A DNA stretch of 64,000 nucleotides from a virus. This document shows, piece by piece, positions 3,224-46,611 of the stretch; the first letter of the stretch is position 1; the number at the start of each line of letters is the position of its first letter. Location: the IMG/VR virus record IMGVR_UViG_3300035698_015907, one strand, 5' to 3'. Under the pieces are notes generated by a model. That model worked only from the letters and a program-made list of their open reading frames with translations. It did no database searches and was not told where the DNA came from. Made by a program: the position numbers and the translations under genes.

Positions 3224-4275
3224 TTTTTATGATTCTTTCCTGTGAATCTTTGATTAACGATCTTTAATGCTCTCATCGATCCAGAAACTACATCAAAAAA
3301 CTTAAGAACAAACCCTTCAATATCTCTTTCATTTATTACTACGTCAGAACAATTTTTCAGCTGCTTAACCAACTCTATAACATTGTTATAGTGCTGCTCA
3401 TTTTCTGTTATATCTCTTAGAATGTTATCATATTTTTTATTAATATTCTCGATGGCTTTTTCTCTAACCATCTTTGATACTTTTTTCTGTTCTTTCTGAA
3501 TTAGAAAATTTTTGAATGCATCTATGTCCATAGAATTAAAATAGTATGTTCTGAAAGACGAATTCAAGAATTCATTTAGTTCTTTTTTGTAACCAATTTT
3601 TTCTATTGATTTCGCAGATTTCACATTCTTAAGTAGAGATTTTACTGATAAATTACATTCCATTAATCTGAGTGATGTGATATAACTATCACTGATGTAT
3701 GGCGTGTTTTTAACATAATGGATGGATTTACTATTTCTATGTGGGTCGCTTTCGCATGGTACAAATTTGCCATCGACACATTTAGATGTTATAGTGATAG
3801 CTAATTTCTTGTTTGGATCGTAGGTAGAACCCAAATCATATGTTATAACATTCGGTGTTATGTAACATGATAAACCGCTGTCATCATATTCCATCCATCC
3901 AATTTGATATAACACATTTTCACCACCTAATATTTCTTCAGCATAATCTAATGCTATACTAAGAATTTTTAGCTGGTTTTTCTTGTCTGAATAAGCTTTT
4001 TCAATATCAGATTTATTAGTGAACATAGGAGATTTAACTCCTTTATATCCTACAGCAGGCAAGCTATTATGGATACCAACTTTTATAGACATAGCATCGT
4101 CTATTTTTTCTGAAATTTCACATCTAAAAGAATTAGACCCCATAGCTTTAAGTGACATTTCATCAAAGCACACTGATGCTAATTCTAATGATTCAATACA
4201 CTTTTCAGCATTTTCATCAAGTTGCCACACGTGATCAATATGTTCTATGACCGGAGGCTTTATATCAATACTCAT
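3205..4275 (-). CDS. hypothetical protein (usual partner of the T4-like cytidyltransferase gene)
   Basis: 356-aa ORF; HIDH, EKID, PNVITY, EGFV motifs. Confidence 0.55.
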   Translation of the reverse strand: MSIDIKPPVIEHIDHVWQLDENAEKCIESLELASVCFDEMSLKAMGSNSFRCEISEKIDDAMSIKVGIHNSLPAVGYKGVKSPMFTNKSDIEKAYSDKKNQLKILSIALDYAEEILGGENVLYQIGWMEYDDSGLSCYITPNVITYDLGSTYDPNKKLAITITSKCVDGKFVPCESDPHRNSKSIHYVKNTPYISDSYITSLRLMECNLSVKSLLKNVKSAKSIEKIGYKKELNEFLNSSFRTYYFNSMDIDAFKNFLIQKEQKKVSKMVREKAIENINKKYDNILRDITENEQHYNNVIELVKQLKNCSDVVINERDIEGFVLKFFDVVSGSMRALKIVNQRFTGKNHKKWHQTP

Positions 4276-5858
4276 TATATAATCCTAATCTTGAGAACAT
4301 TTCTATTTCCATCATAATCAACATGTCGTAACACCGTTTTAATTTTTAATTCGGCGTTCAAATCTTTAAGTATTTCAAGATTTTCAACTCTATCATCCCA
4401 CATCTGTACTTCATCATATGATCCATTTACAACTAAATCTTTTATAACACGTTTCTTATTTTCTTCGGTAGTTTCATTATTCAATTTTATATTGCCAGAT
4501 CTATGAATATGTATTTTGTTTGCATCGATATTATATTCATTCAATTTCTTTAAGAATATATCATGATCAGTGAAATCTGTTCTAGCTGTTACTATAATAA
4601 CATCTTTTCCGTCATTTGATAATTTTAGCATTCTATCAATCATTTTTTGTATAGGTAATGCATTACCAAAGAAGTGTTCAGAGTCTTTAAATGTTTCATA
4701 AGAAAATGAATGATCATTCATAAGTTCATGATCATGATATTCTTTTGTAGATAATTTATGTACAACAGCACCAGATTTATCTATTACATGAACTGATGGT
4801 TCAGTACCTTCTTTATACCAGAATAATGTATCATCCATATCAAAAATATAGAGCACACGCTTTTTTCTTTTTCGTTCATTAAGCATTTGTACTTTAAAAT
4901 CACCACGCCAATTAGTAACAGGTCCAGAATTTGTTCGTATTGATAAAGTAGCAACTATTTCTTCTACTTGAAATTTCTTATTGAATGCTAGAAAATTGAT
5001 ATTAATAGAATTACTGTTATTGTGAACTCTAAAATTTTCATATTTCTCAGAAGCTTCTTTAGTCTTCCGTTCAATGTTATACACATCAAACAAAGCACCA
5101 GCTGGATGCACTCTTACATGCGTTCTATAATGTGGAAAAACAGTATCATGACACGAAGCTTCAATTATGATATTTTTGATAAAATCAGAGCTGCTATTTT
5201 CTAATGAGTTTCTAATAGCTTGAGCTATATTGCGTCGATATGCTAAACTAGATTGTTCAGCTTTTTTCGCAATATCAGTGCCTTTCAGACTTTTATATCT
5301 GTCATGATTTTCTTTTGCTGTGCCATTAAAACCGAGCTGTTTTATGTATTTGTCATGTTGTTTTCTAAAAGAATTTAGATAATCAATTTTTAATTTTTCT
5401 TCTAAAGTCGAACAACCAGAATTTCTTAATGTAGCATGTTTTGATGTACCGTACTTAGCTGAAATACCAATAAAGTTACCGGTAGAAATAGTCTGTATCA
5501 TTAAATCAGCATCAGAATTTATATCTTTGATACCAGTAAGTTTTTCATGCTCACCTATAGATCCTAAGCTGTCATCAAGTGATGTCCATGTAACGCTCTG
5601 AACATCAGTAGTGTTACATAGATGGCCATCAACATGCAGCGCAGATTTAATATGTTCTGATAAAGAATATGAATGCTCAGATATTAAATCACAAGCTTCA
5701 ATTCCTAGTGTATTAACACATACATTATAAATTTCAGATGGAGAAGATTCTTCAGATCTAAAATGATTAGGCCACGTATTTCCAGATAAAGCCCATGCTA
5801 ACATTATTTCATGAGCTTTACCGCGAGCATCATGTTTGCTCCCGTTAATTCTTGTCAC
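4275..5858 (-). CDS. fusion: restriction-endonuclease-like N-terminal domain plus HAD phosphatase
   Basis: E...ADL...GISAK (PD-(D/E)xK-like); C-terminal YIFDMDDTLF, IVTAR, WDDR HAD motifs. Confidence 0.65.
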   Translation of the reverse strand: MTRINGSKHDARGKAHEIMLAWALSGNTWPNHFRSEESSPSEIYNVCVNTLGIEACDLISEHSYSLSEHIKSALHVDGHLCNTTDVQSVTWTSLDDSLGSIGEHEKLTGIKDINSDADLMIQTISTGNFIGISAKYGTSKHATLRNSGCSTLEEKLKIDYLNSFRKQHDKYIKQLGFNGTAKENHDRYKSLKGTDIAKKAEQSSLAYRRNIAQAIRNSLENSSSDFIKNIIIEASCHDTVFPHYRTHVRVHPAGALFDVYNIERKTKEASEKYENFRVHNNSNSININFLAFNKKFQVEEIVATLSIRTNSGPVTNWRGDFKVQMLNERKRKKRVLYIFDMDDTLFWYKEGTEPSVHVIDKSGAVVHKLSTKEYHDHELMNDHSFSYETFKDSEHFFGNALPIQKMIDRMLKLSNDGKDVIIVTARTDFTDHDIFLKKLNEYNIDANKIHIHRSGNIKLNNETTEENKKRVIKDLVVNGSYDEVQMWDDRVENLEILKDLNAELKIKTVLRHVDYDGNRNVLKIRII

Positions 5859-7172: not shown

Positions 7173-7414
7173 TTTCTTGTACCATCCTCAAATGCACTTT
7201 TTGTTGCGTTTTTCATTATTATTAAATCATAAAGAGATATATTCCATTTTTTAGAATATTCTTCTATTGCGCCAATCAAATCTGATAATTCTATCAAACT
7301 CATAACATGATTGTTTTGTTCTATCGCATCAATGAATTCAAGATATTCTTCAGTTATCTTAGAAGCTTCCCCAAATTCACCTTTCGGTATTTCAGTTAGA
7401 TGATATGCCATCAA
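7169..7414 (-). CDS. MazG-like all-alpha NTP pyrophosphatase
   Basis: KITEEYLE...IELSDL (EExxE...ExxD). Confidence 0.55.
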   Translation of the reverse strand: MMAYHLTEIPKGEFGEASKITEEYLEFIDAIEQNNHVMSLIELSDLIGAIEEYSKKWNISLYDLIIMKNATKSAFEDGTRK

Positions 7415-8008
7415 TCATTCCTCATATGTTTCTAAACAATTTATCAACTGGGACAATCTAGGCTCTGCTACACCTGTGCCATAAATCCAAGTTCCTAACA
7501 AAGTAGAATTTCTTATACCATATGATCCCAATTCATATCCAAAATATGTAATATCACATCCTTCATCAGTTTTGTCAAATCTTATACCTTTATCATGAGG
7601 TACAATCTTTTTGAAAAATTCTGATGCATCATCCATCATCTCATCTAATAATCTAGACAGATAATCTTCCTCAGCATTAGAATCTATTATTATAAGTTCA
7701 TTTTTGATGAAATATTTAGTGTGCAATTCATCAAATTGATTATCTCTGATGCAAGGTGTTACCGTTTGATACTTACCATCTGGTAGATAACCTTTTGCAA
7801 GCATATACAAAAACGATTGTTCACCACTTCCAACGAAAGTTTTCTTTTTACCTCTGTGTTCAACATGATAATTTGAAGCAAAATCGGGTTTAGTTATATT
7901 GTTAATATCTTCTGTAACAAGCCATGGCGCTTCAATTCTAGTATAACCACAACTTTCATAATGCGTTATTGATATATCAATAATGCCATAATCTATAGTT
8001 CTATTCAT
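7415..8008 (-). CDS. class II aminoacyl-tRNA synthetase-like catalytic fragment
   Basis: GYTRIEAPW (motif 1), TPCIRD (motif 2), ELGSYG...GTGVAEPRL (motif 3); no anticodon-binding domain. Confidence 0.65.
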   Translation of the reverse strand: MNRTIDYGIIDISITHYESCGYTRIEAPWLVTEDINNITKPDFASNYHVEHRGKKKTFVGSGEQSFLYMLAKGYLPDGKYQTVTPCIRDNQFDELHTKYFIKNELIIIDSNAEEDYLSRLLDEMMDDASEFFKKIVPHDKGIRFDKTDEGCDITYFGYELGSYGIRNSTLLGTWIYGTGVAEPRLSQLINCLETYEE

Positions 8009-9017
8009 GAAATAATTTCACCATTTTATCTATTATCATGTAATGATCAAATGCTAAAGCATTTTTCATATTAGTTCGAACATAATCTAAATCTATCCAA
8101 CCAACCCAAGCAGCATCATCTTTTGCTTTAATTTCTATGTCATAATTATCATCTAGTATGTGACCATAAGCTATGGATATAATAATAGCTCGTGGGTCAC
8201 GGTCCTGGTCGCCTGAGACCACCACATGCTGACCTAAGCTTAAGCCGTGAGTGACCTCATGCAGCTTTATGTGGGTCTCCTCATAAAGCTCTCTTATAGC
8301 TCCCTCTAGTGGCGTCTCGCCAAGCTCAAAAAATCCACCAGGCAGAGCAAACCCTCCAATATAAGGATTCTTCTTTCTTTTTATGAGCAATATTTTGTTG
8401 TTTTGAATTATGACATTATCACATGTTATGTGTGGTCTAATCCCGTGAGAAGTTATATAATAACTGCTGGAGTTATACATATCAACAACGTTTTTAATTT
8501 CGGGATTTTTAAAATTATCTAAAACAATGTCATGGTGTCTGTTAGACACCCATGCTAGATCAAGAATGCTACTATTTTTACGATCTACATTCAAATTTTT
8601 ATAATAACATTCTCTTATAACAGTAGAATTAACTGAATTAATTTTTTCAGCTAATACTACATTCCAATATGGTTGAAATGAATTAATATAAGAATATTCA
8701 TCTAAATTTTTAACATGAACATAAAGAGAATTATCTCCAGGTCCAATTAATTTCATAATATTTCTAGACCACAGTTCAGTATTACCTACATCATACATAT
8801 GATGTACTAGAACTCTATTTTTATATTGCTCCGGTATAGCGCTATCAATGATTTGTAAGCGTTCTCTGAATGTGAACGGGTCTCTAGCAGTTCTCATCTG
8901 ATTCGGAGAACACACTATTAAATGAAGATAATCACAATCTGCTAAAGCTTTTTCAACAACTGACATGTGCCCAGAATGAAAAGGCTGAAATCTACCTATT
9001 ACTACAGAGTTTTTCAT
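8001..9017 (-). CDS. nadM: bifunctional NMN adenylyltransferase / Nudix ADP-ribose pyrophosphatase
   Basis: GRFQPFHSGH plus Nudix box GGFFELGETPLEGAIRELYEET and DDA. Confidence 0.85.
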   Translation of the reverse strand: MKNSVVIGRFQPFHSGHMSVVEKALADCDYLHLIVCSPNQMRTARDPFTFRERLQIIDSAIPEQYKNRVLVHHMYDVGNTELWSRNIMKLIGPGDNSLYVHVKNLDEYSYINSFQPYWNVVLAEKINSVNSTVIRECYYKNLNVDRKNSSILDLAWVSNRHHDIVLDNFKNPEIKNVVDMYNSSSYYITSHGIRPHITCDNVIIQNNKILLIKRKKNPYIGGFALPGGFFELGETPLEGAIRELYEETHIKLHEVTHGLSLGQHVVVSGDQDRDPRAIIISIAYGHILDDNYDIEIKAKDDAAWVGWIDLDYVRTNMKNALAFDHYMIIDKMVKLFHE

Positions 9018-15471: not shown

Positions 15472-16056
15472 TTAGTTTCTATCATTTATCAATTTCTCTA
15501 TTTTTTCTTTAACATAAGCAGGGTTAGCTTTGCCTCGAGCTTCTTTCATAACTTGGCCAACTAGCCAATTATTTACTTTGTCTGAACCATCTAATTTTTC
15601 AGAATTAGCTTCAATGATATTAATTATCGTTGTATCAATATCACTATTTTTCACTGGAACATATTTAGGATCGGATAAAATTTTGGAGAGCTCTTCACCA
15701 AACAAATATCGCCTAATTACATCTTTGAAATGTCTCTTATCAAGAACTTCAAATTCAAACATCATTCTACATAGAACATTCATTAATTCTATGTTAACTA
15801 GATATTCTAAACCGACTTCACCAAATTCATTAGATATTGCATTGCCATCATTATTAATAAGCTTTGCTATCTTTGAAGAATAGTCAAAGTTTTTAGTAAA
15901 TGGTTCACTAAATTTAATTGCTTCTGGTATCCAAGCATCTGTCAGTCTAACATAACCTGTAGTGAATTCTATATTTCCAAATTCATCAAGTCTGTTGCAT
16001 GTACCATATTCTATATCATCTACAATTTTAACATTTTCATATGAATATTTAGACAC
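15472..16056 (-). CDS. GatB/YqeY C-terminal domain protein
   Basis: WLVGQVMKEARGKANP. Confidence 0.75.
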   Translation of the reverse strand: MSKYSYENVKIVDDIEYGTCNRLDEFGNIEFTTGYVRLTDAWIPEAIKFSEPFTKNFDYSSKIAKLINNDGNAISNEFGEVGLEYLVNIELMNVLCRMMFEFEVLDKRHFKDVIRRYLFGEELSKILSDPKYVPVKNSDIDTTIINIIEANSEKLDGSDKVNNWLVGQVMKEARGKANPAYVKEKIEKLINDRN

Positions 16057-17275
16057 AAGTCTTCCCTATTCCATCAAGCAGTTCTTCACGATTTAATACA
16101 AATCTAGAATTTCCCCACTCGGTGCGAAGCTCTTTAAGCTTAATACCAACATCAGGACCAGGTGGAATTCCAAGTTCAATTAAATCTTTACCAGAGACTG
16201 GAAATTTTGGCTTTGGCATTGCCATATATTCATCAAGAAATCTTGCAAGCTTATGATCACCAATATAAACAGAATAATGATATAGCTTTCCAGGATCAAG
16301 TTCACCTCGTGCTATTCTAGACATAACATATTCTGGGCCATCAACCCAGTAAATTGCATGTCCTTTAGCTCCATCTTCTACAATATGATTCTTAATTATG
16401 AATTTCATAATATCATAAGAATTATTGTCGAACTTAAGTCTCTTTCTCAAATTTATCAGATTATCTAACGAGTTGAGCATTGCTACTATGTAATACAACG
16501 GGCTCTTTGCTCGATCATTTATAGCAAGTTCTTCTATTTTAGCAATGCAGTCAGGTGATAGATACAAACTAGCATCTATAGAATACAGTATATTATGATA
16601 TTCCATAATCTTTAGCACTGTTAATGCAGATGTGCCAGAACAAATCTTAATAAGTTCAGACCAAATTCTTTCACCAGAGATTTCTGAAAGATTGCTACTT
16701 AATTTTGTGATTATTTCTAATGTTATAGGATCAATGACTGGATTATTAAGCTTTGACGCGAAACGAAAATAACGAAGTATTCTAAGATAATCTTCTTTGA
16801 TTCTAGAATCAGCATAACCTACAAATTTAATGACTTCGTTATTTAGATCATTCAAGCCATCAAAATAATCGTATAATACACCTTCTTTATCCATATACAT
16901 AGCATTGAATGTGAAATCTCTGCGTGATGCATCAACTTCCCAATCAGTAGTAAATTCTATTTCAGCATGACGGCCATCAGTAATAATATCTTTACGAAGA
17001 GATGTTATTTCAACGGCTTGCTTATTGATAATAGCTGTAATTGTACCGTGCTTCAGACCGGTTGGAATTACATTATATCCTAATGCAGCTAAAGAACTGC
17101 ATATATCAGTCGGCTTAACATCTGTAGCAATATCAATATCATCAGGTTCAATGCCCTGAAGCATATCACGTACACAACCTCCAACAAGTCGTGCACTGCC
17201 ACTTTTTATACTAGCAGCCTTATCAACCTTTCGTAGTATTGATAATGTGTTATGATCTATTTCAAAAGAATTCAT
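16049..17275 (-). CDS. cca: CCA-adding tRNA nucleotidyltransferase
   Basis: VGGCVRD, DIDIAT, EITSLR, DASRRDFTFNAM, RIKEDYLRILRYFRF, ISGERI. Confidence 0.92.
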   Translation of the reverse strand: MNSFEIDHNTLSILRKVDKAASIKSGSARLVGGCVRDMLQGIEPDDIDIATDVKPTDICSSLAALGYNVIPTGLKHGTITAIINKQAVEITSLRKDIITDGRHAEIEFTTDWEVDASRRDFTFNAMYMDKEGVLYDYFDGLNDLNNEVIKFVGYADSRIKEDYLRILRYFRFASKLNNPVIDPITLEIITKLSSNLSEISGERIWSELIKICSGTSALTVLKIMEYHNILYSIDASLYLSPDCIAKIEELAINDRAKSPLYYIVAMLNSLDNLINLRKRLKFDNNSYDIMKFIIKNHIVEDGAKGHAIYWVDGPEYVMSRIARGELDPGKLYHYSVYIGDHKLARFLDEYMAMPKPKFPVSGKDLIELGIPPGPDVGIKLKELRTEWGNSRFVLNREELLDGIGKTCV

Positions 17276-17337: not shown

Positions 17338-18804
17338 TTATTTCTTTTTCCACGGCATATCTACTACGCCAGCCATAATAGATCCTCTTGGCATAATACG
17401 ATCTTCAACAGTAGCAAGACCATATTTATTTATTTGACTCTGGACTTGTTCAGCATTTTTATATGATGACGGAAGCTCAGATATATCAATATCACCAGTG
17501 TAAAACCGAATATCAAGACCTTCGGTTTCCCTTTTCAATACTGCATCTTTAACTTCTTTTGGAACAGTCCTATTTTTATTCCACTGATCTCTCACGCCAA
17601 ATTCATCTACAATTCTTCTAGTATGTTCAGTTCTTGACAAGTTTCTTCCTGCACCATGGGGTGCAAAACCAAGATTCTTATCTGAATTAGCATGGCTAGT
17701 AAGAAGAATTGGCTGAGCCATATTCAAAGGAATGATAGTAATTCCATTATCATCTAATGAATACCCATCATATGATGGCGTAGCTCCTTTAGCATGGAAG
17801 AAATTATCTCCACGTTTGAACACGAAGTTGTGTTCATTCCAAAACCAGTCTTCCATGGAATTACCAAGTCTTTTTGCAATAGTTTCGTGTATAGCAAAAT
17901 GATTCATTTTAGTCCACAAACGAACAGTCTGAAGAGCTATCCAATAATCATGACCAATTTTGCTGTCATAATCTAGCCACGCCTGATGCTCTGGAATTCT
18001 TGGTGCTACAACAGCAGTATGCTTCTTTGCAGCTGACATTCCATGCTTATATAACAAACCACCAAGAGACCTAGAACCATGATGAGTAACTAGACACATC
18101 TGTCCTGTGGATTCTAATTCACCGACATACAAAAAGTGATTTCCATCACCTTGAGTCATAAAGTGGTTCTCGGCAGCATCAACAAACTTCTTATTATCAA
18201 GAAAACTATTTCCTTCGAATTTAGAAATAAGTTCCTTTAGTTTGTGGTTTCTGCGCACTTCTGATTTAGATCTTTTGCCTAAACCAAAGTGAGTAACTTT
18301 CATTGCTTCATCAAGAACTCTTTTTACATCATCATTGCGCTTGAAAATAGTTACTGCCATCGAGCAGCAAATATCAGCAGAATGCATTCCTGGATGAATG
18401 GTACCTTTAGTTTCTATTACGCCCCCAACTGGAATAGTTCCAAGCTGATTTCCAGCCGGCATTGAATCTGGCATAACCGCAGCTCTTTCCACGGTCGGTA
18501 GTCTCATAATTGCATCCATGTGTTGGATTACATTTTTGAGATTCTCTCTTTCATCATCAGATTCTGGATCTAAAAATATCTCGAACGGGCGAGAATTTGT
18601 ACGAAGAGATAAAAGGCTTTCTTCATACACTTTCTGTTTTTCTAGAACATCATCATAGAATTTTAAAGCAGCAAATTTAATTTCATCTAATGAACTGCCT
18701 TTATTTTCCATTAGATTTACAACATTTAACAAATCACGAAAGTGTTTACCTTCCGGGATTCCCCACTCTTTTAATTTTTCGCCATTCATAGTATCATCCG
18801 CCAC
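17338..18804 (-). CDS. rtcB: RtcB-family RNA ligase
   Basis: MPD, SADICCS, GDGNHF, THHGSR, NEHN, HAKGAT, HGAGR, ELPSSYK. Confidence 0.92.
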   Translation of the reverse strand: MADDTMNGEKLKEWGIPEGKHFRDLLNVVNLMENKGSSLDEIKFAALKFYDDVLEKQKVYEESLLSLRTNSRPFEIFLDPESDDERENLKNVIQHMDAIMRLPTVERAAVMPDSMPAGNQLGTIPVGGVIETKGTIHPGMHSADICCSMAVTIFKRNDDVKRVLDEAMKVTHFGLGKRSKSEVRRNHKLKELISKFEGNSFLDNKKFVDAAENHFMTQGDGNHFLYVGELESTGQMCLVTHHGSRSLGGLLYKHGMSAAKKHTAVVAPRIPEHQAWLDYDSKIGHDYWIALQTVRLWTKMNHFAIHETIAKRLGNSMEDWFWNEHNFVFKRGDNFFHAKGATPSYDGYSLDDNGITIIPLNMAQPILLTSHANSDKNLGFAPHGAGRNLSRTEHTRRIVDEFGVRDQWNKNRTVPKEVKDAVLKRETEGLDIRFYTGDIDISELPSSYKNAEQVQSQINKYGLATVEDRIMPRGSIMAGVVDMPWKKK

Positions 18805-21758: not shown

Positions 21759-23264
21759 ATGAACAAGTTTATGAAGTCACTAAAGACAAATCAAGAAAAG
21801 AAGCTAACCGAGAATGGAGGAATTACTTTTGATTCCTCGGGTCAATCTAATGTTGATCTGTTTTTCCAAATCGGTGCACTTCGTGGTCAAGAACCAGATC
21901 GGCTTTATAGACTTTTTTCTAAGGCTTACGGCGAAAATAAAGAACTAGCAATTAGAACTATGTTGTGGGTTCGTGATGTTAGGGGAGGAGCTGGTGAACG
22001 CAAGATTTTTAGGGATCTACTAACCTGGCTCGAAACTAATGATCGCGATATTTTGGTAGATATTCTTCCAGCGATTCCAGAGCTGGGACGTTGGGACGAT
22101 CTTTTGGTTTTCGGTACTAAGAAATTCAAGACCAATGCTTTCAATATGATTGAACAAGCTTTGGGCGAAGCAAATGGTCTTTGTGCAAAATGGATGCCTC
22201 GAAAGGGCGTCGTTGCAAATGAACTTAGAAACCATATGAAACTTTCACCGAAGCGATATAGAAAACTTCTAGTTGAATTAACTAATGTTGTCGAAAATCA
22301 GCTTTGCGCTAAGCAGTGGGAAGACGTTAATTATGAAAAAGTTCCTTCTGTAGCTCAGTCTAGATATAATAGAACTTTCCTACGACATGATGAGGAAAGG
22401 TATCGTGAATTTAGTGAAAAAGCTAAGACATATGCTGAAGCTGTAGCATCAGGTGAACCGATTCCAGATGATGTTGAAAAGGTAAAAATCAATGCTGGTG
22501 CCGTATATCCATATGATGTTTTGAAGTCTGTCGTTAATAGTTATTTTGGCGGCTATGGTTATGGAGCACAAGATAATAGTTTCAGTGTCGATACTGTTAG
22601 AGCACAGTGGTTGACTTTGCCTAATTATATAGGAAATAATAGTGTTCTTCCTATGGTTGATGTTTCAGGATCAATGACTTCATTGATTGGTTCGAAAAAT
22701 CTAAGTGCGTTGCAAGTTGCATTGTCACTTGGTTTGTATATGTCTGGAAAGAACAGCGGCGCATTTCATAATGCTCTATTGACTTTCACTTCTGTGCCGG
22801 AGTTGATTCACTTGAAGGGTGAAGATATTATTGCTCATATAGAGCAGATGTCTAAAGATCGCTGGTATGGATCTACAAACGTTTCTGCAGCATTTACAAA
22901 GATTTTGTCTTTCGCAGTTAAGAATGCTGTTCCACAGGAAGATATGCCTGAATATATCATAGTATTTTCTGATATGGAATTTGATCGTGCTGATCGTACT
23001 GGTGGTGAAACTGCATCTGAAGATATGGAAATCCAGTTTTCTAGTGCTGGCTATAGAGTTCCTAAAGTTGTTTGGTGGAATATCCAATCACGTCAGGATA
23101 ATGTACCAGTATCATTTAATAAGAATGGTGCTGCTCTAGTTTCTGGTTTTTCGCCATCTCTTGCAAAGAACATCATGAGTGGTGAAAGTATTAATCCAAC
23201 TGAAATGATGCTAAAAGTTATCATGGACGAAAGATACGATCTAAAGAAGTATGCAGCCGCTTAA
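21759..23264 (+). CDS. DUF2828 / TROVE(Ro60)-like protein with C-terminal vWA domain
   Basis: TENG, RDVRGGAGER, GRWDDL, AKWMPR, MIDAS VDVSGSM, FSDMEFD, LVSGFSP; own sigma70 promoter at about 21663-21691. Confidence 0.85.
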   Translation: MNKFMKSLKTNQEKKLTENGGITFDSSGQSNVDLFFQIGALRGQEPDRLYRLFSKAYGENKELAIRTMLWVRDVRGGAGERKIFRDLLTWLETNDRDILVDILPAIPELGRWDDLLVFGTKKFKTNAFNMIEQALGEANGLCAKWMPRKGVVANELRNHMKLSPKRYRKLLVELTNVVENQLCAKQWEDVNYEKVPSVAQSRYNRTFLRHDEERYREFSEKAKTYAEAVASGEPIPDDVEKVKINAGAVYPYDVLKSVVNSYFGGYGYGAQDNSFSVDTVRAQWLTLPNYIGNNSVLPMVDVSGSMTSLIGSKNLSALQVALSLGLYMSGKNSGAFHNALLTFTSVPELIHLKGEDIIAHIEQMSKDRWYGSTNVSAAFTKILSFAVKNAVPQEDMPEYIIVFSDMEFDRADRTGGETASEDMEIQFSSAGYRVPKVVWWNIQSRQDNVPVSFNKNGAALVSGFSPSLAKNIMSGESINPTEMMLKVIMDERYDLKKYAAA

Positions 23265-26872: not shown

Positions 26873-26939
26873 GGTATACTTACAGCAACTATTGCCTTAA
26901 GGGCATTCAAACTTGAACTTTGAAGAAGAATGTATACCG
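26873..26939 (+). ncRNA. UUACAGCA stem RNA 1 (putative Y-like RNA)
   Basis: GGTATAC-TTACAGCAA...GTATACC-G; internal anticodon-like hairpin TTCAAA-CTTGAAC-TTTGAA. Confidence 0.65.
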
Positions 26940-26951
26940 ATAACTACATAA

Positions 26952-27117: not shown

Positions 27118-27181
27118 AGGATCATTACAGCATTAATACTATTTCAGATAATAAGGCGCTGTTCAGACAGCATTGATCCTG
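27118..27181 (+). ncRNA. UUACAGCA stem RNA 2
   Basis: AGGATCA-TTACAGCAT...TGATCCT-G; internal GCTG-TTCAGA-CAGC hairpin. Confidence 0.6.
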
Positions 27182-27282
27182 AAATTATAATTATTGTTTT
27201 GCTGCAGCATAATTTATTAGCTGGTTCGATTCCGACTATCCCCGCCATATGGGGATTTTGGTAAAAACAAACCAGAAAAATT

Positions 27283-27370
27283 GGAAGATAAACTGAGTAG
27301 GTCACTCAGGGCTCCCTGGAAAGGAGTACGGTCCCACTGGACTGCGTTTCGAGTACGCTGTCTTCCGCCA
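27283..27370 (+). tRNA. tRNA-Ser(GGA)
   Basis: type II, G73 CCA. Confidence 0.85.
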
Positions 27371-27383
27371 TTAAGGATGTAAA

Positions 27384-27566
27384 ATGTCAGCATTAATTTC
27401 TTTTGTGATAGTCGCAGCTGTTGCGTTGCTTATAGCAGAAATTTGTATTTTTATTGTTAGAAAAGTACCTATCATAGATAACGCAATCAAACAGATTGTA
27501 GAATGGGCAATTTATGCCGTAACTGCAATTTATCTTCTCATGGAAATTTTGAAGTTAGTAGGATAA
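27384..27566 (+). CDS. small two-TM membrane protein
   Basis: 60 aa, hydrophobic. Confidence 0.6.
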   Translation: MSALISFVIVAAVALLIAEICIFIVRKVPIIDNAIKQIVEWAIYAVTAIYLLMEILKLVG

Positions 27567-27646
27567 TAAATCTAACAGGGTTAGACATCGTTTCGAAAAC
27601 GATTGGGTCCTAACGGACTGGGGATCGAGACCTCTATTATCCGCCA
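27561..27646 (+). tRNA. tRNA-Ser(CGA)
   Basis: type II, G73 CCA. Confidence 0.85.
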
Positions 27647-27652
27647 TCTATT

Positions 27653-27739
27653 GGAGAGTCAACCTAACAGGGGTTAGGGCCCGCCTTGAAAGCGGATCGG
27701 TCCTTCGGGACTGGGGTTCGAGTCCTCGGCTCTCCGCCA
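27653..27739 (+). tRNA. tRNA-Ser(TGA)
   Basis: type II, G73 CCA. Confidence 0.9.
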
Positions 27740-27806
27740 TCTAATTAAATTTAATAACATATAATAAACGGTTGACAACGGATGCTAACCGTGGTATAAA
27801 TAAAGT

Positions 27807-28200
27807 CATGATCAAGTTGTTAAGTCAGCAGGTTCATAGCAGATGGTTTCAGGACCCGGGGGCAGTACCCGGCGCCTCCACCATGAGTACACAGTAACAA
27901 AATATATTTTGTTATAACAAAATATTGGTCAGGACTTCCGCGGCCCTGGTTTTATTATAGTTGTTAAACGATCTCACTCGCGATCACTCGCGATGAGATG
28001 CAGAATCTATAATAGTTATCTGTGTATTCTTGATGGGGGCGAAATAGGTTTCGACTGATGCAGTAAACTAGAAAATCGATCATCGTTTTGCACACGCCAG
28101 TGCTCGTAAGATAGATGCCAACGATAATGACATCGCTGTTGAGATGGCCCTAGCGGCTTAATCTCTCGGGGTTCGAAGGTACCTGGCAACAGAAACCTTC
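27807..28200 (+). ncRNA. ssrA: two-piece (permuted) tmRNA, alphaproteobacterial type; tag ANDNDIAVEMALAA
   Basis: acceptor piece ends GACCCGGGGGCAGTACCCGGCGCCTCCACCA (27883); coding piece starts GGGGGCGAAATAGG (28035); tag ORF 28117-28161; 3' CCTGGCAACAGAA motif; promoter TTGACA 27772 / TATAAA 27795. Confidence 0.92.
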
Positions 28201-28216
28201 ACTTAATTTTGGCTAA

Positions 28217-28340
28217 AGGATTGTTACAGCAAAATTTATGCTTGGCTTTCAACCACCTTGTCGTAGGTTCGAATCCTACCTTCTCCAATTGGGGAAGTAG
28301 CTCAGTTCGGTAGAGCGGGTAACGCAAAAAAGCAATCCTG
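28217..28340 (+). ncRNA. UUACAGCA stem RNA 3 containing a circularly permuted tRNA (YrlA-like topology)
   Basis: AGGATTGT-TACAGCAAAATTTA, then T arm GTAGG-TTCGAAT-CCTAC, acceptor CTTCTCC-AATT-GGGGAAG, D arm GCTC-AGTTCGGTA-GAGC, then GCAATCCT-G. Confidence 0.8.
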
Positions 28341-28371
28341 ACCAGCATACCACGAATTAATAATTTGAATT

Positions 28372-28448
28372 GCCCCGATAGCTCAACGGTTAGAGCAGAT
28401 GTTTCTAAAGCATTGTGTTGTGGGTTCGAATCCCACTCGGGAGCGCCA
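28372..28448 (+). tRNA. amber suppressor tRNA (anticodon CTA)
   Basis: anticodon arm GATGT-TTCTAAA-GCATT; canonical D and T arms; acceptor with a bulged A; G73 CCA. Confidence 0.85.
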
Positions 28449-28567
28449 TTTGAGGAACTATAATGAATAATTTTTAGATTAATATGGAGGTGATGATGTA
28501 GATCATTAAGAAACCTCCATAAAGTACATATCAATTGAACATTAATTTTAATTCAAGGAGATATGTA

Positions 28568-29011: not shown

Positions 29012-29999
29012 ACAATAACAAATTAGCAAATTGCCTTTTAACAAAAGCAGAAAGAAAATATATAACAAGAATTGCGTGTGGCAAATGGATGGTGTTTAGC
29101 CATCGCCTACTAATCAAGGAATAACCTGTCTCTTAAAAGACAAACGAGATTAGATGCAGCAAGAATTGGCGGCGTGACGTCATTAGGATAAGTTCCGTAA
29201 GGAACCCAATGCAGGAATTCCTACATACCTGCTCTGAAAGGCCATTTACGCAGACCTGACCGACATCGCGAGATGTGCTTCGTTTAGAAAACGGACGGAG
29301 ATAAAATGGAAGTCAGGCAGAGGAAATAGCATATGTTTATGTGCCACCTCGGTGGGAACACAAGCATATGAAGAGATCTGGAAAATCCTCTCTGCAACCA
29401 AACTGACCATATTCTACGGTAAAGGGTAGTTCATTTGTTCGAGATCGCAATCAAGAGCTTATGAGCAGTTTTGCGGGTTAAGGGTTTCACTTGTAGTGAA
29501 GTCATTGATCCAAAGAAATCAGCTGAGTAGTCGGCAGACGAAAGGTATGAGGAGTGTTGTATTCTGTATCTAACAAGATTCGGAGCAACTGAGATAGCAC
29601 TTTTCTGTAGGTTAGCATAGCTCAAACTAGAGCAACTCGGTTTTAACGAGTAGGTTGGTGGTCTGATAGCCACCTGTTTATTTAAACGCAAAGACTATCT
29701 CAGATAACCACGTAAAGTGGCAAATGGTTGAACCTTCGGGTAATCAACCCCAAAGAGACTCGCAAGGTCAAATTGGTTCGTATTTAATGTTTCATAAAGG
29801 GAAGCACCCTTGAATGGCCCGCAAGGTCAATGAGAATATGAATGCGGAGTAGTGGTTATTGTTAAGCCTAACGCATGGCTTTAAATTGCGCCATCGATGT
29901 TTTACCGGAAAATTCTGGTGGATGTCTTGTTAATCTCACTCGCAAGGTGTAGAGTACGGCAGGAAGAAGCATCATATAAACGGGTAATCTCACCGTTTT
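29012..29999 (+). ncRNA. GOLLD-like giant structured ncRNA with embedded tRNA-like (TTT) domain
   Basis: about 1 kb without a credible ORF after a TTGACA/TAATAT promoter; many GNRA/UUCG hairpins; GAGTGTTGTATT, GCAACTGAG, terminal CGG-GTAATCTCA-CCG; located in tRNA array. Confidence 0.75.
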
Positions 30000-30418: not shown

Positions 30419-30504
30419 GGAAAGTGAAACGGGGAGGTCTCCGTACCTGTTTGCTAAACAACGTGCTCTAATAGAGTGGGCTTCGATTGCTCCGCTTTCC
30501 GCCA
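30419..30504 (+). tRNA. tRNA-Ser(GCT)
   Basis: type II, G73 CCA. Confidence 0.8.
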
Positions 30505-30511
30505 GTTTTAT

Positions 30512-30601
30512 GGGATACTTACAGCAAAATTTACATTAGCAATGGTAGCTAATCTGTCTTTAAAACAGATGATTCGGTTCAGATCCGACAAGTGTATCCC
30601 G
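30512..30601 (+). ncRNA. UUACAGCA stem RNA 4 with D-, anticodon(TTA)- and T-like arms
   Basis: GGGATAC-TTACAGCAAAATTTA, TTAGC-AATGGTA-GCTAA, TCTGT-CTTTAAA-ACAGA, TCGG-TTCAGAT-CCGA, GTATCCC-G. Confidence 0.75.
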
Positions 30602-30731
30602 CTTTAATTTAAAAGGTTTTTAGAATGTGTGCTGCTTCTTATATTGGTGATTATTTTCAGAAAGGTTTTGAGAATAATTATCCAGATACTTGGAAATATA
30701 TCTATGATCAGCAACCAACACCAAAATAGAT

Positions 30732-32539: not shown

Positions 32540-33049
32540 GTGAACAAACTATTCGTTTTCATACGCAGTGATTTAGAGTCTATGTCAGTTGGTAAAGCGT
32601 GCGCTCAAGTTGCTCATGCTGCTAGCATGGTATCTCATGTTTATTTTAGCATTGATGTTTTAGAAGAATATTATTCTTGGTCCGAATCTGCTCATGATTA
32701 TGCAAAAAGCATAGACAAAGAAAACAAACTTCTGCCATCATATCTTGGCTTTGGTACTACGGTCGTTTTAGATGGAAAGAATTTAGATCCTTATACTATT
32801 GTTGCTGCCCGACCAGAATTTAAGAATAAATTCCCCGAAACAATCGAAGAATCAATTGAATCATTAGGTCAAGCTTCTGGTGTCGTTAGAGACCCTACAT
32901 ATCCATTAAGAGATGGTGATGTGGTTCATAGTATAGATATTCCTACATGTTTCTGGGTTTTTGGTGATCCTTCTTCAGATTTTGAACTTTATGCATTTCT
33001 CAGAAAGTTTTCATTATATAATGGTAACGAGATAAGCTCTAATAAATAA
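32540..33049 (+). CDS. peptidyl-tRNA hydrolase, Pth2 type
   Basis: RSDLESMSVGKACAQVAHAA, TVVL, VRD..PTC. Confidence 0.75.
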   Translation: MNKLFVFIRSDLESMSVGKACAQVAHAASMVSHVYFSIDVLEEYYSWSESAHDYAKSIDKENKLLPSYLGFGTTVVLDGKNLDPYTIVAARPEFKNKFPETIEESIESLGQASGVVRDPTYPLRDGDVVHSIDIPTCFWVFGDPSSDFELYAFLRKFSLYNGNEISSNK

Positions 33050-46536: not shown

Positions 46537-46611
46537 GGCCCAGTCGTCTAGTGGCTAGGACACTTGCCTTTCAAGCAGGGAAAGAGGGATCGAAACCCTT
46601 CTGGGCTACCA
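46537..46611 (+). tRNA. tRNA-Glu(TTC)
   Basis: cloverleaf, CCA. Confidence 0.88.

What the first reader, a model, noticed from the sequence alone, without database searches (positions are those of the whole stretch)
28217..28340. Circularly permuted tRNA embedded in a closed stem (YrlA topology)
Seen: the order is anticodon-like hairpin (TGG-CTTTCAA-CCA), T arm, acceptor 3' strand CTTCTCC, AATT loop, acceptor 5' strand GGGGAAG, D arm. The 3' half of a canonical-looking tRNA therefore precedes its 5' half, and the acceptor stem is closed by a loop. Known: this T, closed acceptor, D order is that of YrlA-type Y RNAs. Inference: it is either a non-chargeable tRNA mimic or a precursor that RtcB ligation and CCA addition (both encoded here) could mature into a tRNA. 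A similar, weaker arrangement occurs at about 27218-27268.
Basis: partly seen in the sequence, partly recalled or inferred. Interest (0 to 1): 0.8.

Follow-up and report, generated by a model that had tools for sequence, protein, structure and literature searches.

The report
Phage Y-RNA-like permuted tRNA mimic
This stretch encodes a roughly 125-nucleotide phage RNA that folds like a tRNA turned inside out, and it probably partners a Ro60-like protein encoded 5 kb upstream; it belongs to a large, so far uncatalogued phage branch of the Y RNA world.

Summary
At 28217-28339 (+), a 7-bp terminal helix encloses a T arm, a loop-closed 7-bp acceptor stem and a D arm, in that permuted order.

It is not decayed tRNA debris. 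Homologues occur in Ro-like-encoding phages of very different lineages: Klebsiella KP13-26, a Felix-like coliphage, Sinorhizobium phiN3, mycobacteriophage LeBron and many IMG/VR contigs. All four helices covary (97.5% of cells paired against about 41% with slid partners).

The family shares a handle: the terminal helix, then UUACAGCA(A), then an A-rich 3' linker. The window holds five such RNAs within 3.7 kb of the tRNA array.

The window also encodes a DUF2828/DUF7788 protein (21759-23264). Its predicted fold matches Ro60/Rsr best, although Pfam TROVE does not detect it. RtcB and a CCA-adding enzyme lie nearby.

Best reading: a YrlA-type Y RNA of a divergent Ro-like RNP. The canonical GNCGAA motif is replaced by ACAGCAA.

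The anticodon-like hairpin is weak and not conserved, so maturation into a decoding tRNA is unlikely. [quoted passage not shown]

First-reader notes from an overlapping window of the same genome already flagged this family.

The parts
28217..28223 (+). Terminal (handle) helix, 5' strand: AGGATTG
   Evidence: Pairs with 28333-28339. This helix is 98% paired across the 21-sequence alignment, and 6 of its 7 pairs show changes on both sides.
28224..28232 (+). Conserved handle motif: UUACAGCAA
   Evidence: C, G, C, A of CAGCA are invariant in alignment A3. Four of the five TTACAGCA occurrences in the window lie at 26880, 27125, 28224 and 30519 on the + strand, each beside a 7-bp closing helix.
28243..28255 (+). 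Weak anticodon-like hairpin: TGG-CTTTCAA-CCA
   Evidence: Present in the sequence. It has only 3 bp, is absent from the centroid fold, and is not conserved in the family.
28255..28257 (+). Short closing helix of the tRNA-like module (ACC), pairing with GGG... at 28318-28320
   Evidence: The Rfam YrlA alignment pairs 28255-58 with 28317-20. In A3 the helix as a whole is 62.5% paired; its first three pairs (70-80% paired, several pair types) carry the support and the fourth is mostly unpaired. Support is partial.
28263..28279 (+). T arm: GTAGG-TTCGAAT-CCTAC
   Evidence: The helix is 100% paired in A3, and GGTTC.A..CC is invariant.
28280..28297 (+). Closed 7-bp acceptor stem: CTTCTCC - AATT loop - GGGGAAG. 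It includes a G3:U70-type wobble, followed by A at the discriminator position.
   Evidence: All 7 pairs covary in the family and 94% of cells are paired. The G:U at the 3:70 position is seen only in the window copy.
28298..28316 (+). U8-A9 and D arm: GCTC-AGTTCGGTA-GAGC, with A14 and G18/G19-like residues
   Evidence: The helix is 98.8% paired. T86 (U8-equivalent) is nearly invariant; G88, A92, G97 and T99 are invariant.
28317..28332 (+). A-rich 3' linker: GGGTAACGCAAAAAAG
   Evidence: The A-run before the 3' handle strand is conserved across the family.
28333..28340 (+). Terminal helix 3' strand CAATCCT, plus the conserved following G
   Evidence: The family consensus here is ..CCUGUU.
21759..23264 (+). 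Ro60-like protein (DUF2828 + DUF7788 / vWA), the presumed protein partner
   Evidence: Pfam. PHROG 850 'RNA-binding protein' at 1e-137. The AF2 model has pLDDT 82, and its 12 best Foldseek PDB matches (E <= 0.001) are all Ro60/Rsr/TROVE. DxSxS is invariant.
26873..26940 (+). Second handle RNA: GGTATAC / GTATACC, with TTACAGCAA
   Evidence: R1 scores it at 26.2 bits; also found by the script. It lies between tRNA-Phe and tRNA-Gln.
27118..27181 (+). Third handle RNA: AGGATCA / TGATCCT, with TTACAGCA
Evidence: Model R1 missed it.
27191..27279 (+). Truncated tRNA-like handle RNA, with T arm and closed stem but no D arm.
   Evidence: R1 scores it at 28.2 bits, with alignment shown.
30508..30605 (+). 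Fifth handle RNA: GGGATAC / GTATCCC, with TTACAGCAAAA and a different cargo
   Evidence: R1 scores it at 31.2 bits. Sequence.
17338..18804 (-). RtcB RNA ligase
   Evidence: Pfam PF01139, 7.7e-26. The same RtcB / Ro-like neighbourhood occurs in relatives L091 and L092.
16049..17275 (-). CCA-adding-type nucleotidyltransferase
   Evidence: Pfam PolyA_pol head domain at 1.3e-30, plus its RNA-binding domain.
27768..28203 (+). Permuted (two-piece) alpha-type tmRNA immediately upstream, probably co-transcribed
   Evidence: Rfam RF01849 at 108.6 bits and RF04321 at 78 bits. ARAGORN extends the call to 28252, which overlaps the handle and is probably an over-extension.
28372..28444 (+). Amber-suppressor-type tRNA(CUA) immediately downstream
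   Evidence: ARAGORN and Rfam tRNA at 55.8 bits.

Best explanation
The element is a non-coding RNA of about 123-130 nt belonging to the Y RNA class, of YrlA-like type.

Proposed biogenesis (inferred): it is transcribed on the + strand as part of the tRNA/tmRNA array. It is probably released by the enzymes that process its tRNA-like neighbours.

The RNA has two parts.
1. A handle. This is a 7-bp helix formed by its two ends, with the internal loop UUACAGCAA on the 5' side and an A-run on the 3' side. Four other small RNAs in this window share it, as do hundreds in other phages. It is most likely the docking site of the phage's Ro60-like ring protein (21759-23264).
2. A cargo. This is a permuted tRNA body consisting of a T arm, a loop-closed 7-bp acceptor stem and a D arm. 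It keeps the tRNA elbow nucleotides, so it presents the acceptor/T minihelix and elbow of a tRNA without a working anticodon arm.

By analogy with YrlA, the cargo would be recognised by tRNA-handling enzymes such as RNase P, the CCA-adding enzyme, TruB and Dus. It could also tether or gate the Ro-like protein in RNA quality control, tRNA repair or counter-defence.

Shown here: the sequence, the covarying structure, conservation across distant phages, genome-level co-occurrence and same-strand linkage with the Ro-like gene, and the Ro60-like fold of that protein.

Inferred, not shown: expression, protein binding, processing and function.
For: 1. Structure. The Rfam YrlA model aligns to the T/acceptor/D module at 46 bits, E 1.2e-8. 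That is higher than the score of the published YrlA of mycobacteriophage ET08, which gets 37.4 bits.

2. Family. A 21-sequence alignment from independent phage contigs gives four helices, and 19 of 23 pairs show changes on both sides. 97.5% of cells are paired, against 35-43% when partners are slid. There are 126 double-change cells against 35 in shuffles, with 0 of 500 shuffles reaching the observed value.

3. Model R1 finds 55 strong hits (at least 50 bits) and 190 hits at E<0.01 in 81 loci. All are on the strand of the Ro-like gene.

4. Linkage in whole cultured-phage genomes. All 7 strong, full-length hits lie within about 6.3 kb of the Ro-like gene, on its strand.
- KP13-26: 2 hits, starting 270 and 410 nt downstream of the gene.
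- LeBron: 1 hit, 105 nt downstream.
- Coliphage E9: 1 hit, about 1 kb downstream.
- phiN3: 2 hits, 1.3 and 6.1 kb upstream.
- Listeria LP-125: three tandem handle RNAs 70-340 nt upstream of its DUF2828 gene, with RtcB downstream.

5. Ascertainment-independent test. A scan of IMG/VR for the handle motif alone gave 80 loci.
- 23 hold a Ro-like gene within the short locus, always on the motif's strand.
- Of 10 long contigs without it in the locus, 7 carry it elsewhere.
- That includes 4 of the 4 contigs that are at least 90% complete.
- For comparison, the protein is found in 711 of 50,697 phage records.

6. Protein. The best structural matches of the AF2 model are Xenopus and human Ro60, D. radiodurans Rsr and Thermus phage phiLo Ro60, full length, E 1.6e-7 to 4e-5.

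7. Context. RtcB and a CCA enzyme lie nearby, as in the rsr-yrlBA-rtcBA operon (PMC4201824, PMC7790460).

8. Literature. Two studies suspected but did not identify Y RNAs next to such proteins: Bas63 gp130 (PMC11482910), and Listeria phage CKA15, where three very highly transcribed unannotated regions lie within 2 kb upstream of the Ro-like gene (PMC12282133).
Against: - There is no expression or binding data for this phage.
- The Rfam YrlA gathering score is not reached (46 against 69).
- The canonical Rsr-binding motif GNCGAAN0-1G is absent.
- Pfam TROVE does not detect the protein, so the partner is Ro60-like by fold only, with TM about 0.5.
- In the window the RNA lies 5 kb from the gene, not next to it.
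- In freshwater phage contigs the handle modules are very numerous and fill the spacers between tRNA genes. That pattern would also fit a processing or punctuation signal.
- The fold z-score of the single sequence is modest, at -1.97.
Confidence: 0.75

Rival explanations
1. Two-piece, CCA-tailed tRNA-like RNA. RNase P cuts 5' of G28291 inside the AATT loop. The 3' end is trimmed to A28287, and the phage or host enzyme adds CCA. The two pieces stay together through the acceptor stem, the elbow and the terminal helix, much like the permuted tmRNA next door. In the window copy, G3:U70 plus A73 could even allow charging by AlaRS. This is compatible with the Y RNA reading and would be an added layer.
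For: - The acceptor stem is exactly 7 bp and stacks on a 5-bp T arm.
- M. smegmatis YrlA, the one YrlA with a 7-bp stem, is cut by RNase P in vitro and is cleaved and CCA-tailed in vivo (PMC4201824).
- Several family members encode ACCA or ACCC directly after the acceptor 3' strand: L058:9747, L013:9633, L066:7347, L050:158 and L025:708.
- A CCA-adding enzyme is encoded in the window.
- G3:U70 and A73 are present in the window copy. AlaRS recognition of G3:U70 minihelices is established knowledge.
Against: - Most members have 3-5-nt loops without CCA.
- Salmonella YrlA and D. radiodurans Yrn1 are not cleaved (PMC4201824).
- G3:U70 occurs in 1 of 21 aligned members only, so it may be chance.
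- No data exist on RNA ends.
Confidence: 0.25
2. Permuted tRNA gene that matures into a decoding tRNA-Glu(UUC). The terminal helix is removed, RtcB joins the D-arm side to the anticodon-arm side, and RNase P and CCA addition open the acceptor end, as happens for the permuted tRNA genes of Cyanidioschyzon merolae.
For: - The 3' half precedes the 5' half.
- A 7-nt loop CTTTCAA has U33-like and A37-like positions.
- RtcB and a CCA enzyme are encoded nearby.
Against: - The 'anticodon stem' has 3 bp and competes with a closing helix.
- Across 51 homologues the corresponding spacer is 8-37 nt. About 22 have no hairpin, and the loops of the others range from 3 to 16 nt.
- The conserved ACAGCAA and A-run sequences would be discarded in this model, yet they are the best-conserved parts.
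- A normal tRNA-Glu(UUC) exists at 46537-46611.
- No bulge-helix-bulge motif is evident at the junction.
- RNase P products (5'-P and 3'-OH) are not RtcB substrates. This is established enzymology.
Confidence: 0.04
3. The terminal helix plus ACAGCAA is a general processing or punctuation element of phage tRNA arrays. It could be a nuclease entry site, a transcript-end structure or a mobile intergenic repeat, and it would act independently of the Ro-like protein. The tRNA-like cargo would then be incidental.
For: - In freshwater phage contigs, short modules of 60-72 nt fill the gaps between tRNA genes. They start 1-2 nt after ..CCA and end about 8 nt before the next tRNA.
- They also sit 15-80 nt before start codons.
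- There are many copies per genome.
Against: - LeBron has a single full-length copy, 105 nt after its Ro-like gene and not in a tRNA array.
- KP13-26 has 26 tRNA genes in the 8-kb locus read, but its strong hits lie only just after the Ro-like gene.
- All four essentially complete genomes found by the motif alone carry the Ro-like gene.
- The tRNA-like cargo itself covaries.
Confidence: 0.1
4. Remnants of two adjacent decayed tRNA genes, with no function.
For: Tandem tRNAs can mimic the T-arm/D-arm order. This is the caveat noted in PMC4201824. The locus lies in a tRNA array.
Against: - The two acceptor strands pair with each other, and that pairing covaries in all 7 positions across phages.
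- There is no 5' acceptor strand upstream and no anticodon or T arm downstream.
- The terminal helix covaries.
- The element is conserved from actinophage to proteobacterial phages.
Confidence: 0.01

Closest known systems
YrlA (Y RNA-like A) of Salmonella, M. smegmatis and mycobacteriophage ET08; Rfam RF02553; Chen et al. 2014, PMC4201824
   Same: - The tRNA-like module has the same permuted order: T arm, loop-closed acceptor-like stem, D arm, with elbow nucleotides kept.
- The 5' and 3' ends pair in a terminal stem.
- It is encoded on the same strand as, and near, a Ro60-fold protein and RtcB.
- The Rfam model aligns to the module at 46 bits, compared with 37.4 bits for the published ET08 YrlA.
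   Different: - The proposed Rsr-binding motif GNCGAAN0-1G is absent. The conserved handle is UUACAGCAA plus an A-run.
- The protein partner is DUF2828/DUF7788, which Pfam TROVE does not detect.
- ET08 shows the reverse pattern: it has a true TROVE protein and no match to the DUF2828 profile.
- The element is below the Rfam gathering score.
- The same handle carries other cargoes in sister RNAs.
Yrl1/Yrl2 of Thermus phage phiLo with phiRo60 (PMC12135203; PDB 9KOP, 9L5Y)
   Same: Small phage-encoded RNAs with a stem-bulge-stem layout lie next to a phage Ro60-fold protein. phiRo60 is among the best structural matches of the window's protein.
   Different: The phiLo RNAs were picked by the CGAA motif and are not described as containing a permuted tRNA body. 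The proteins share only about 13% identity.
Permuted tRNA genes of Cyanidioschyzon merolae (from my own knowledge)
   Same: The 3' half of a tRNA-like sequence precedes the 5' half, and the acceptor strands are joined by a short linker.
   Different: The algal genes yield complete decoding tRNAs through a circular intermediate and a bulge-helix-bulge junction. Here the anticodon arm is weak and not conserved, and the junction carries a conserved handle instead.
Two-piece (permuted) tmRNA; one copy lies at 27768-28203 of this window
   Same: Both have a permuted gene order in which the T arm and acceptor 3' strand precede the acceptor 5' strand. The window copy of each has a G3:U70-type pair and an A discriminator.
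   Different: The Y-like RNA has no mRNA-like reading frame, no pseudoknots, and no encoded CCA. Its intervening loop is only 4 nt, and it keeps a D arm.

Membership tests
YrlA (RF02553; Chen et al. 2014) | tRNA-like module ordered as T arm, closed acceptor-like stem, D arm, with conserved T-loop and D-loop residues | tested here: met
   Sequence. The Rfam alignment covers model positions 23-89 with no non-canonical pair. The helices covary in homologues.
YrlA (RF02553; Chen et al. 2014) | Score at or above the Rfam gathering threshold of 69 bits | tested here: not met
   The score is 46.0 bits. The threshold is not discriminating for phage members, because the published ET08 YrlA scores 37.4 bits.
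YrlA (RF02553; Chen et al. 2014) | 5' motif GNCGAAN0-1G, the proposed Rsr contact | tested here: not met
   The motif is absent from 28213-28346. UUACAGCAA is conserved in its place. By contrast, the ET08 YrlA has GGCCGAGAG near its 5' stem.
YrlA (RF02553; Chen et al. 2014) | Encoded next to a Ro60/Rsr (TROVE) orthologue | tested here: inconclusive
   A Ro60-fold protein lies 5 kb upstream on the same strand, and homologous RNAs lie 0.1-6 kb from such genes in other phages. However, the protein is DUF2828/DUF7788, not Pfam TROVE.
YrlA (RF02553; Chen et al. 2014) | Bound by the Ro60 orthologue; carries pseudouridine and dihydrouridine made by TruB and DusA | not testable with these tools
   Needs immunoprecipitation and modification mapping.
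Y RNAs in general | Terminal stem formed by the 5' and 3' ends, with a conserved internal loop or bulge that binds Ro60 | tested here: inconclusive
   The terminal 7-bp helix with strong covariation and the adjacent conserved loop are shown. Binding is not tested.
Permuted tRNA genes that give decoding tRNAs | The two halves reconstitute a full cloverleaf with a 5-bp anticodon stem and a 7-nt loop, conserved among orthologues | tested here: not met
   The window has a 3-bp stem. The arm is absent or variable in 51 homologues.
Permuted tRNA genes that give decoding tRNAs | Processing junction (bulge-helix-bulge) and a circular or ligated intermediate | not testable with these tools
   No such motif is evident by eye at the terminal helix. 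Detecting intermediates needs RT-PCR.
Two-piece tmRNA | Alanine-type acceptor (G3:U70) together with an internal tag-encoding frame | tested here: not met
   G3:U70 is present in the window copy only. There is no tag frame, and neither ARAGORN nor Rfam calls a tmRNA on this element itself.
Ro60/TROVE proteins (the partner, 21759-23264) | HEAT-repeat ring plus a vWA domain with a MIDAS motif | tested here: met
   The AF2 model's 12 best Foldseek matches (E <= 0.001) are Ro60/Rsr/TROVE over the full length. The C-terminal half matches vWA domains. D301-x-S303-x-S305 is invariant in 30 homologues. The Pfam TROVE sequence model itself does not match.

The most novel reading that the evidence does not exclude
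The UUACAGCA handle defines a separate Ro-like RNP system of phages. One ring protein (DUF2828/DUF7788) would use a set of interchangeable small RNAs, each displaying a different piece of a tRNA. Here the piece is the acceptor/T minihelix and elbow; sister RNAs carry anticodon-arm-like hairpins. These could serve as baits, decoys or guides in the conflict over tRNAs between phage and host. The window copy would additionally be opened by RNase P and CCA-tailed into a two-piece, alanine-type acceptor, like a tmRNA without a message.
Probability: 0.12. Interest if true: 0.85.

Novelty: new variant of a known kind. Interest (0 to 1): 0.6.

Why it matters
Ro60 and Y RNAs are studied from bacteria to humans, but phage versions are barely characterised.

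This protein family is present in 711 of 50,697 sequenced phage records. It occurs in Escherichia, Salmonella, Listeria, Staphylococcus, Enterococcus, Campylobacter and Vibrio phages and in cluster L mycobacteriophages.

Two recent studies pointed to unidentified Y RNAs beside it:
- The Bas63 protein counters the Ppl defence (PMC11482910).
- Listeria phage CKA15 makes three very abundant unannotated transcripts just upstream of its gene (PMC12282133).

A sequence and structure definition of the partner RNAs makes these ideas directly testable in cultured phages. That definition is a terminal helix, ACAGCAA, and a cargo such as this permuted tRNA body. It would also correct annotation, because one member lies under 'hypothetical protein' CDSs in coliphage E9. 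Finally, it shows that the canonical YrlA motif is not the only Ro-type handle.

Tried and rejected
- The window's own genome is not held, so there were no whole-genome searches.
- An exact 40-mer of the element finds nothing in IMG/VR.
- blastn against cultured phages finds only KP13-26 for the element itself.
- A sequence search of the Ro-like protein against PDB finds nothing. Only the fold comparison does.
- Full-text search for 'DUF2828' gives nothing relevant.
- The supplementary tables of Chen et al. 2014 are not held. I therefore could not see which phages they listed, and I tested ET08 directly instead.
- The closest protein relatives, at 59-61% identity (L091, L092), share the RtcB / Ro-like synteny. 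Their contigs end before, or right at, the orthologous RNA: L092 stops inside a copy at 16134-16180. Conservation of G3:U70 among close relatives therefore could not be checked.
- A generic script scan for 'any 7-bp stem + CAGCA' is too noisy: 28 hits on the plus strand, 25 on the minus strand, and 7 in shuffles. Only the TTACAGCA subset is informative.
- The minus-strand ORF 28199-28534 overlapping the element has no Pfam or PHROG match and overlaps a tRNA gene. I rejected it as a gene.
- The sigma-70 and terminator scans around the element are at background level.
Full report
**What is there**

The window is phage-like. It holds 31 tRNA genes, a permuted alpha-type tmRNA (27768-28203), a GOLLD RNA (29549-29996) and an amber-suppressor-type tRNA (28372-28444).

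- a 7-bp helix formed by AGGATTG (28217-23) and CAATCCT (28333-39);
- inside it, TTACAGCAA;
- a weak 3-bp hairpin with a 7-nt loop;
- a canonical T arm;
- the strand CTTCTCC, a 4-nt loop AATT, and the complementary strand GGGGAAG;
- TA, a canonical D arm, and an A-rich linker.

Rfam's YrlA model aligns to the T arm, closed stem and D arm at 46 bits (E 1.2e-8 in the local search). It does not align to the flanks, and the score stays below the curated 69 bits. The single-sequence fold reproduces the helices with a modest z-score of -1.97.

**Is it conserved?**

Yes, and this decides against decayed tandem tRNAs.

- blastn found one hit for the element itself, in Klebsiella phage KP13-26 (Stephanstirmvirinae). 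It lies just downstream of a 476-aa DUF2828+DUF7788 protein.
- The window encodes the same kind of protein at 21759-23264.
- Using that protein I fetched 80 IMG/VR loci.
- A structural regex found about 22 elements with the same layout, all on the strand of the protein gene.
- A 21-sequence MAFFT alignment gives four helices by RNAalifold: terminal, T, closed acceptor and D. Nineteen of 23 pairs keep pairing through changes on both sides.
- On that alignment, which was not fitted to a structure, 97.5% of cells pair against 35-43% when partners are slid. There are 126 double-change cells against 35 in shuffles, with 0 of 500 shuffles reaching the observed value.
- A possible extra closing helix in the position of the top of the anticodon stem (window 28255-57 with 28318-20) has partial support: 62.5% of its cells pair, carried by its first three pairs.

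**The family and its handle**

The covariance model R1 finds 190 matches at E<0.01 in the 81 loci, all on the + strand. Fifty-five score at least 50 bits and carry the tRNA-like body.

The remainder are modules of 60-72 nt that share only the handle. Their layout is UUUUAGGAUnC, then (n)nnCAGCAAA, a small hairpin, an A-run, and the complementary strand followed by UGUU. They sit between tRNA genes or just before start codons, including that of the Ro-like gene.

In the window the handle occurs five times within 3.7 kb on the + strand: 26873-26940, 27118-27181, 27191-27279, 28217-28340 and 30508-30605. An earlier first-reader note pointed me to the second, which R1 had missed.

**The protein**

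Pfam sees only DUF2828, DUF7788 and weak vWA, and PHROGs calls it an RNA-binding protein. An AlphaFold2 model (pLDDT 82) has as its 12 best PDB matches (E <= 0.001) Xenopus and human Ro60, D. radiodurans Rsr and the Thermus phage phiLo Ro60, each over the full length. The MIDAS DxSxS motif is invariant. It is therefore a Ro60-like ring-plus-vWA protein that the Pfam TROVE model does not reach. tblastn finds the family in 711 of 50,697 phage records.

**Linkage of RNA and protein**

In whole cultured-phage genomes, every strong full-length R1 hit lies near the Ro-like gene on its strand.

| Phage | Strong hits | Position relative to the Ro-like gene |
|---|---|---|
| KP13-26 | 2 | start 270 and 410 nt downstream |
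| Mycobacteriophage LeBron | 1 | 105 nt downstream, away from any tRNA array |
| Coliphage E9 | 1 | about 1 kb downstream, under annotated 'hypothetical protein' CDSs |
| Sinorhizobium phiN3 | 2 | 1.3 and 6.1 kb upstream |

Listeria phage LP-125 has three tandem handle modules 70-340 nt upstream of its DUF2828 gene, and RtcB downstream.

I also searched IMG/VR with the handle motif alone, to avoid choosing loci by the protein.
- 23 of 80 loci contain the gene within the few kb fetched, always on the same strand.
- Of ten long contigs that lacked it there, seven carry it elsewhere.
- That includes all four contigs that are at least 90% complete.

**Relation to known YrlA**

The phage YrlA published by Chen et al. 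(mycobacteriophage ET08) lies just upstream of a genuine TROVE protein. It has no match to the DUF2828 profile and carries GGCCGAGAG rather than ACAGCAA.

There therefore appear to be two parallel pairings: TROVE Ro60 with GNCGAA-type YrlA, and DUF2828-type Ro-like protein with ACAGCAA-handle RNAs. They share the permuted tRNA-like cargo. R1 scores the ET08 RNA at 43 bits, and Rfam YrlA scores it at 37.

I file the window's RNA as a new variant of the Y RNA / YrlA kind, not as a member of RF02553. Two defining features of RF02553, the motif and the gathering score, were tested and not met.

**Mechanism**

I consider the Y RNA reading most likely (about 0.75). The handle docks the Ro-like protein, and the cargo mimics the acceptor/T minihelix and elbow of a tRNA. 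Nearby RtcB and CCA-adding genes are syntenic in relatives and echo the rsr-yrlBA-rtcBA operon.

Maturation into a decoding tRNA is unlikely. Across 51 distinct homologues the anticodon-arm position is an 8-37-nt spacer with no hairpin in about 22, and the conserved handle would be discarded.

Opening of the closed acceptor by RNase P with CCA addition is plausible. The stem is exactly 7 bp, there is a precedent in M. smegmatis, and some members encode ACCA right after the 3' strand. The G3:U70/A73 combination of the window copy is unique among the aligned members and may be chance.

A pure 'punctuation element' reading is weakened by LeBron and KP13-26 but not excluded.

**Literature**

Two studies suspected Y RNAs beside this protein without identifying them. 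The PhageMaP preprint reports that the Ro60-like gp130 of Bas63 counters the Ppl defence. The Listeria CKA15 study reports three very abundant unannotated transcripts within 2 kb upstream of the Ro-like gene, and finds the protein in virions.

**Limits**

- No expression, end-mapping or binding data exist for this phage.
- The window's own score with R1 is partly circular.
- The nearest relatives' contigs end before the orthologous RNA.

Noticed in passing
window about 27283-27370, 27561-27646, 27652-27740 (+): Three tRNA-Ser-like genes with anticodon loops GGA, CGA and UGA, long D stems and encoded CCA. ARAGORN misses them. The third matches Rfam tRNA-Sec at 47.7 bits (gathering score 47) although its anticodon is UGA, so it has a Sec-like or allo-tRNA-like fold with a serine anticodon.
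   Followed up: no
window 28372-28444 (+): A tRNA with anticodon CUA (amber suppressor type), which ARAGORN calls tRNA-Pyl. KP13-26 has a 'tRNA-Pyl' and phiN3 a 'tRNA-TERM' in the same kind of array.
   Followed up: no
window 27768-28203 (+): Permuted two-piece alpha-type tmRNA with tag ANDNDIAVEMALAA. By eye, TTGACA-17 nt-TATAAA lies just before or at its start (about 27763-27791). ARAGORN's 3' limit of 28252 runs into the Y-like RNA.
   Followed up: partly
window 29549-29996 (+): GOLLD RNA at 172 bits, full-length model, in the same tRNA/ncRNA region.
   Followed up: no
window about 30420-30505 (+): A tRNA-like 3' end (..TTCGATTGCTCCGCTTTCCGCCA) lies directly before the handle RNA at 30508. 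No tool called a tRNA there.
   Followed up: no
L058:9747-9857, L013:9633-9735, L066:7347-7485, L050:158-272, L025:708-822: Family members whose acceptor 'loop' is 10-21 nt long and begins with ACCA or ACCC, as if a genuine tRNA 3' end were encoded inside the closed stem.
   Followed up: partly
L216:3661-3931 (Listeria phage LP-125): Three tandem ACAGCAA-handle modules lie directly upstream of the DUF2828 gene, and an RtcB-like ligase lies 1.3 kb downstream. They may correspond to the three highly transcribed unannotated regions reported for the related phage CKA15.
   Followed up: partly
L090:7386-7520 (Escherichia phage vB_EcoM_E9): A 70-bit tRNA-like handle RNA lies under two annotated 'hypothetical protein' CDSs (7348-7497 and 7484-7660). 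These are probably mis-annotations.
   Followed up: no
window 4275-5858 (-), 32540-33049 (+), 8001-9017 (-): Further RNA and translation-related genes: a weak HAD 'Swiss Army Knife RNA repair' domain, a Pth2-like peptidyl-tRNA hydrolase, and a cytidylyltransferase-NUDIX fusion.
   Followed up: no
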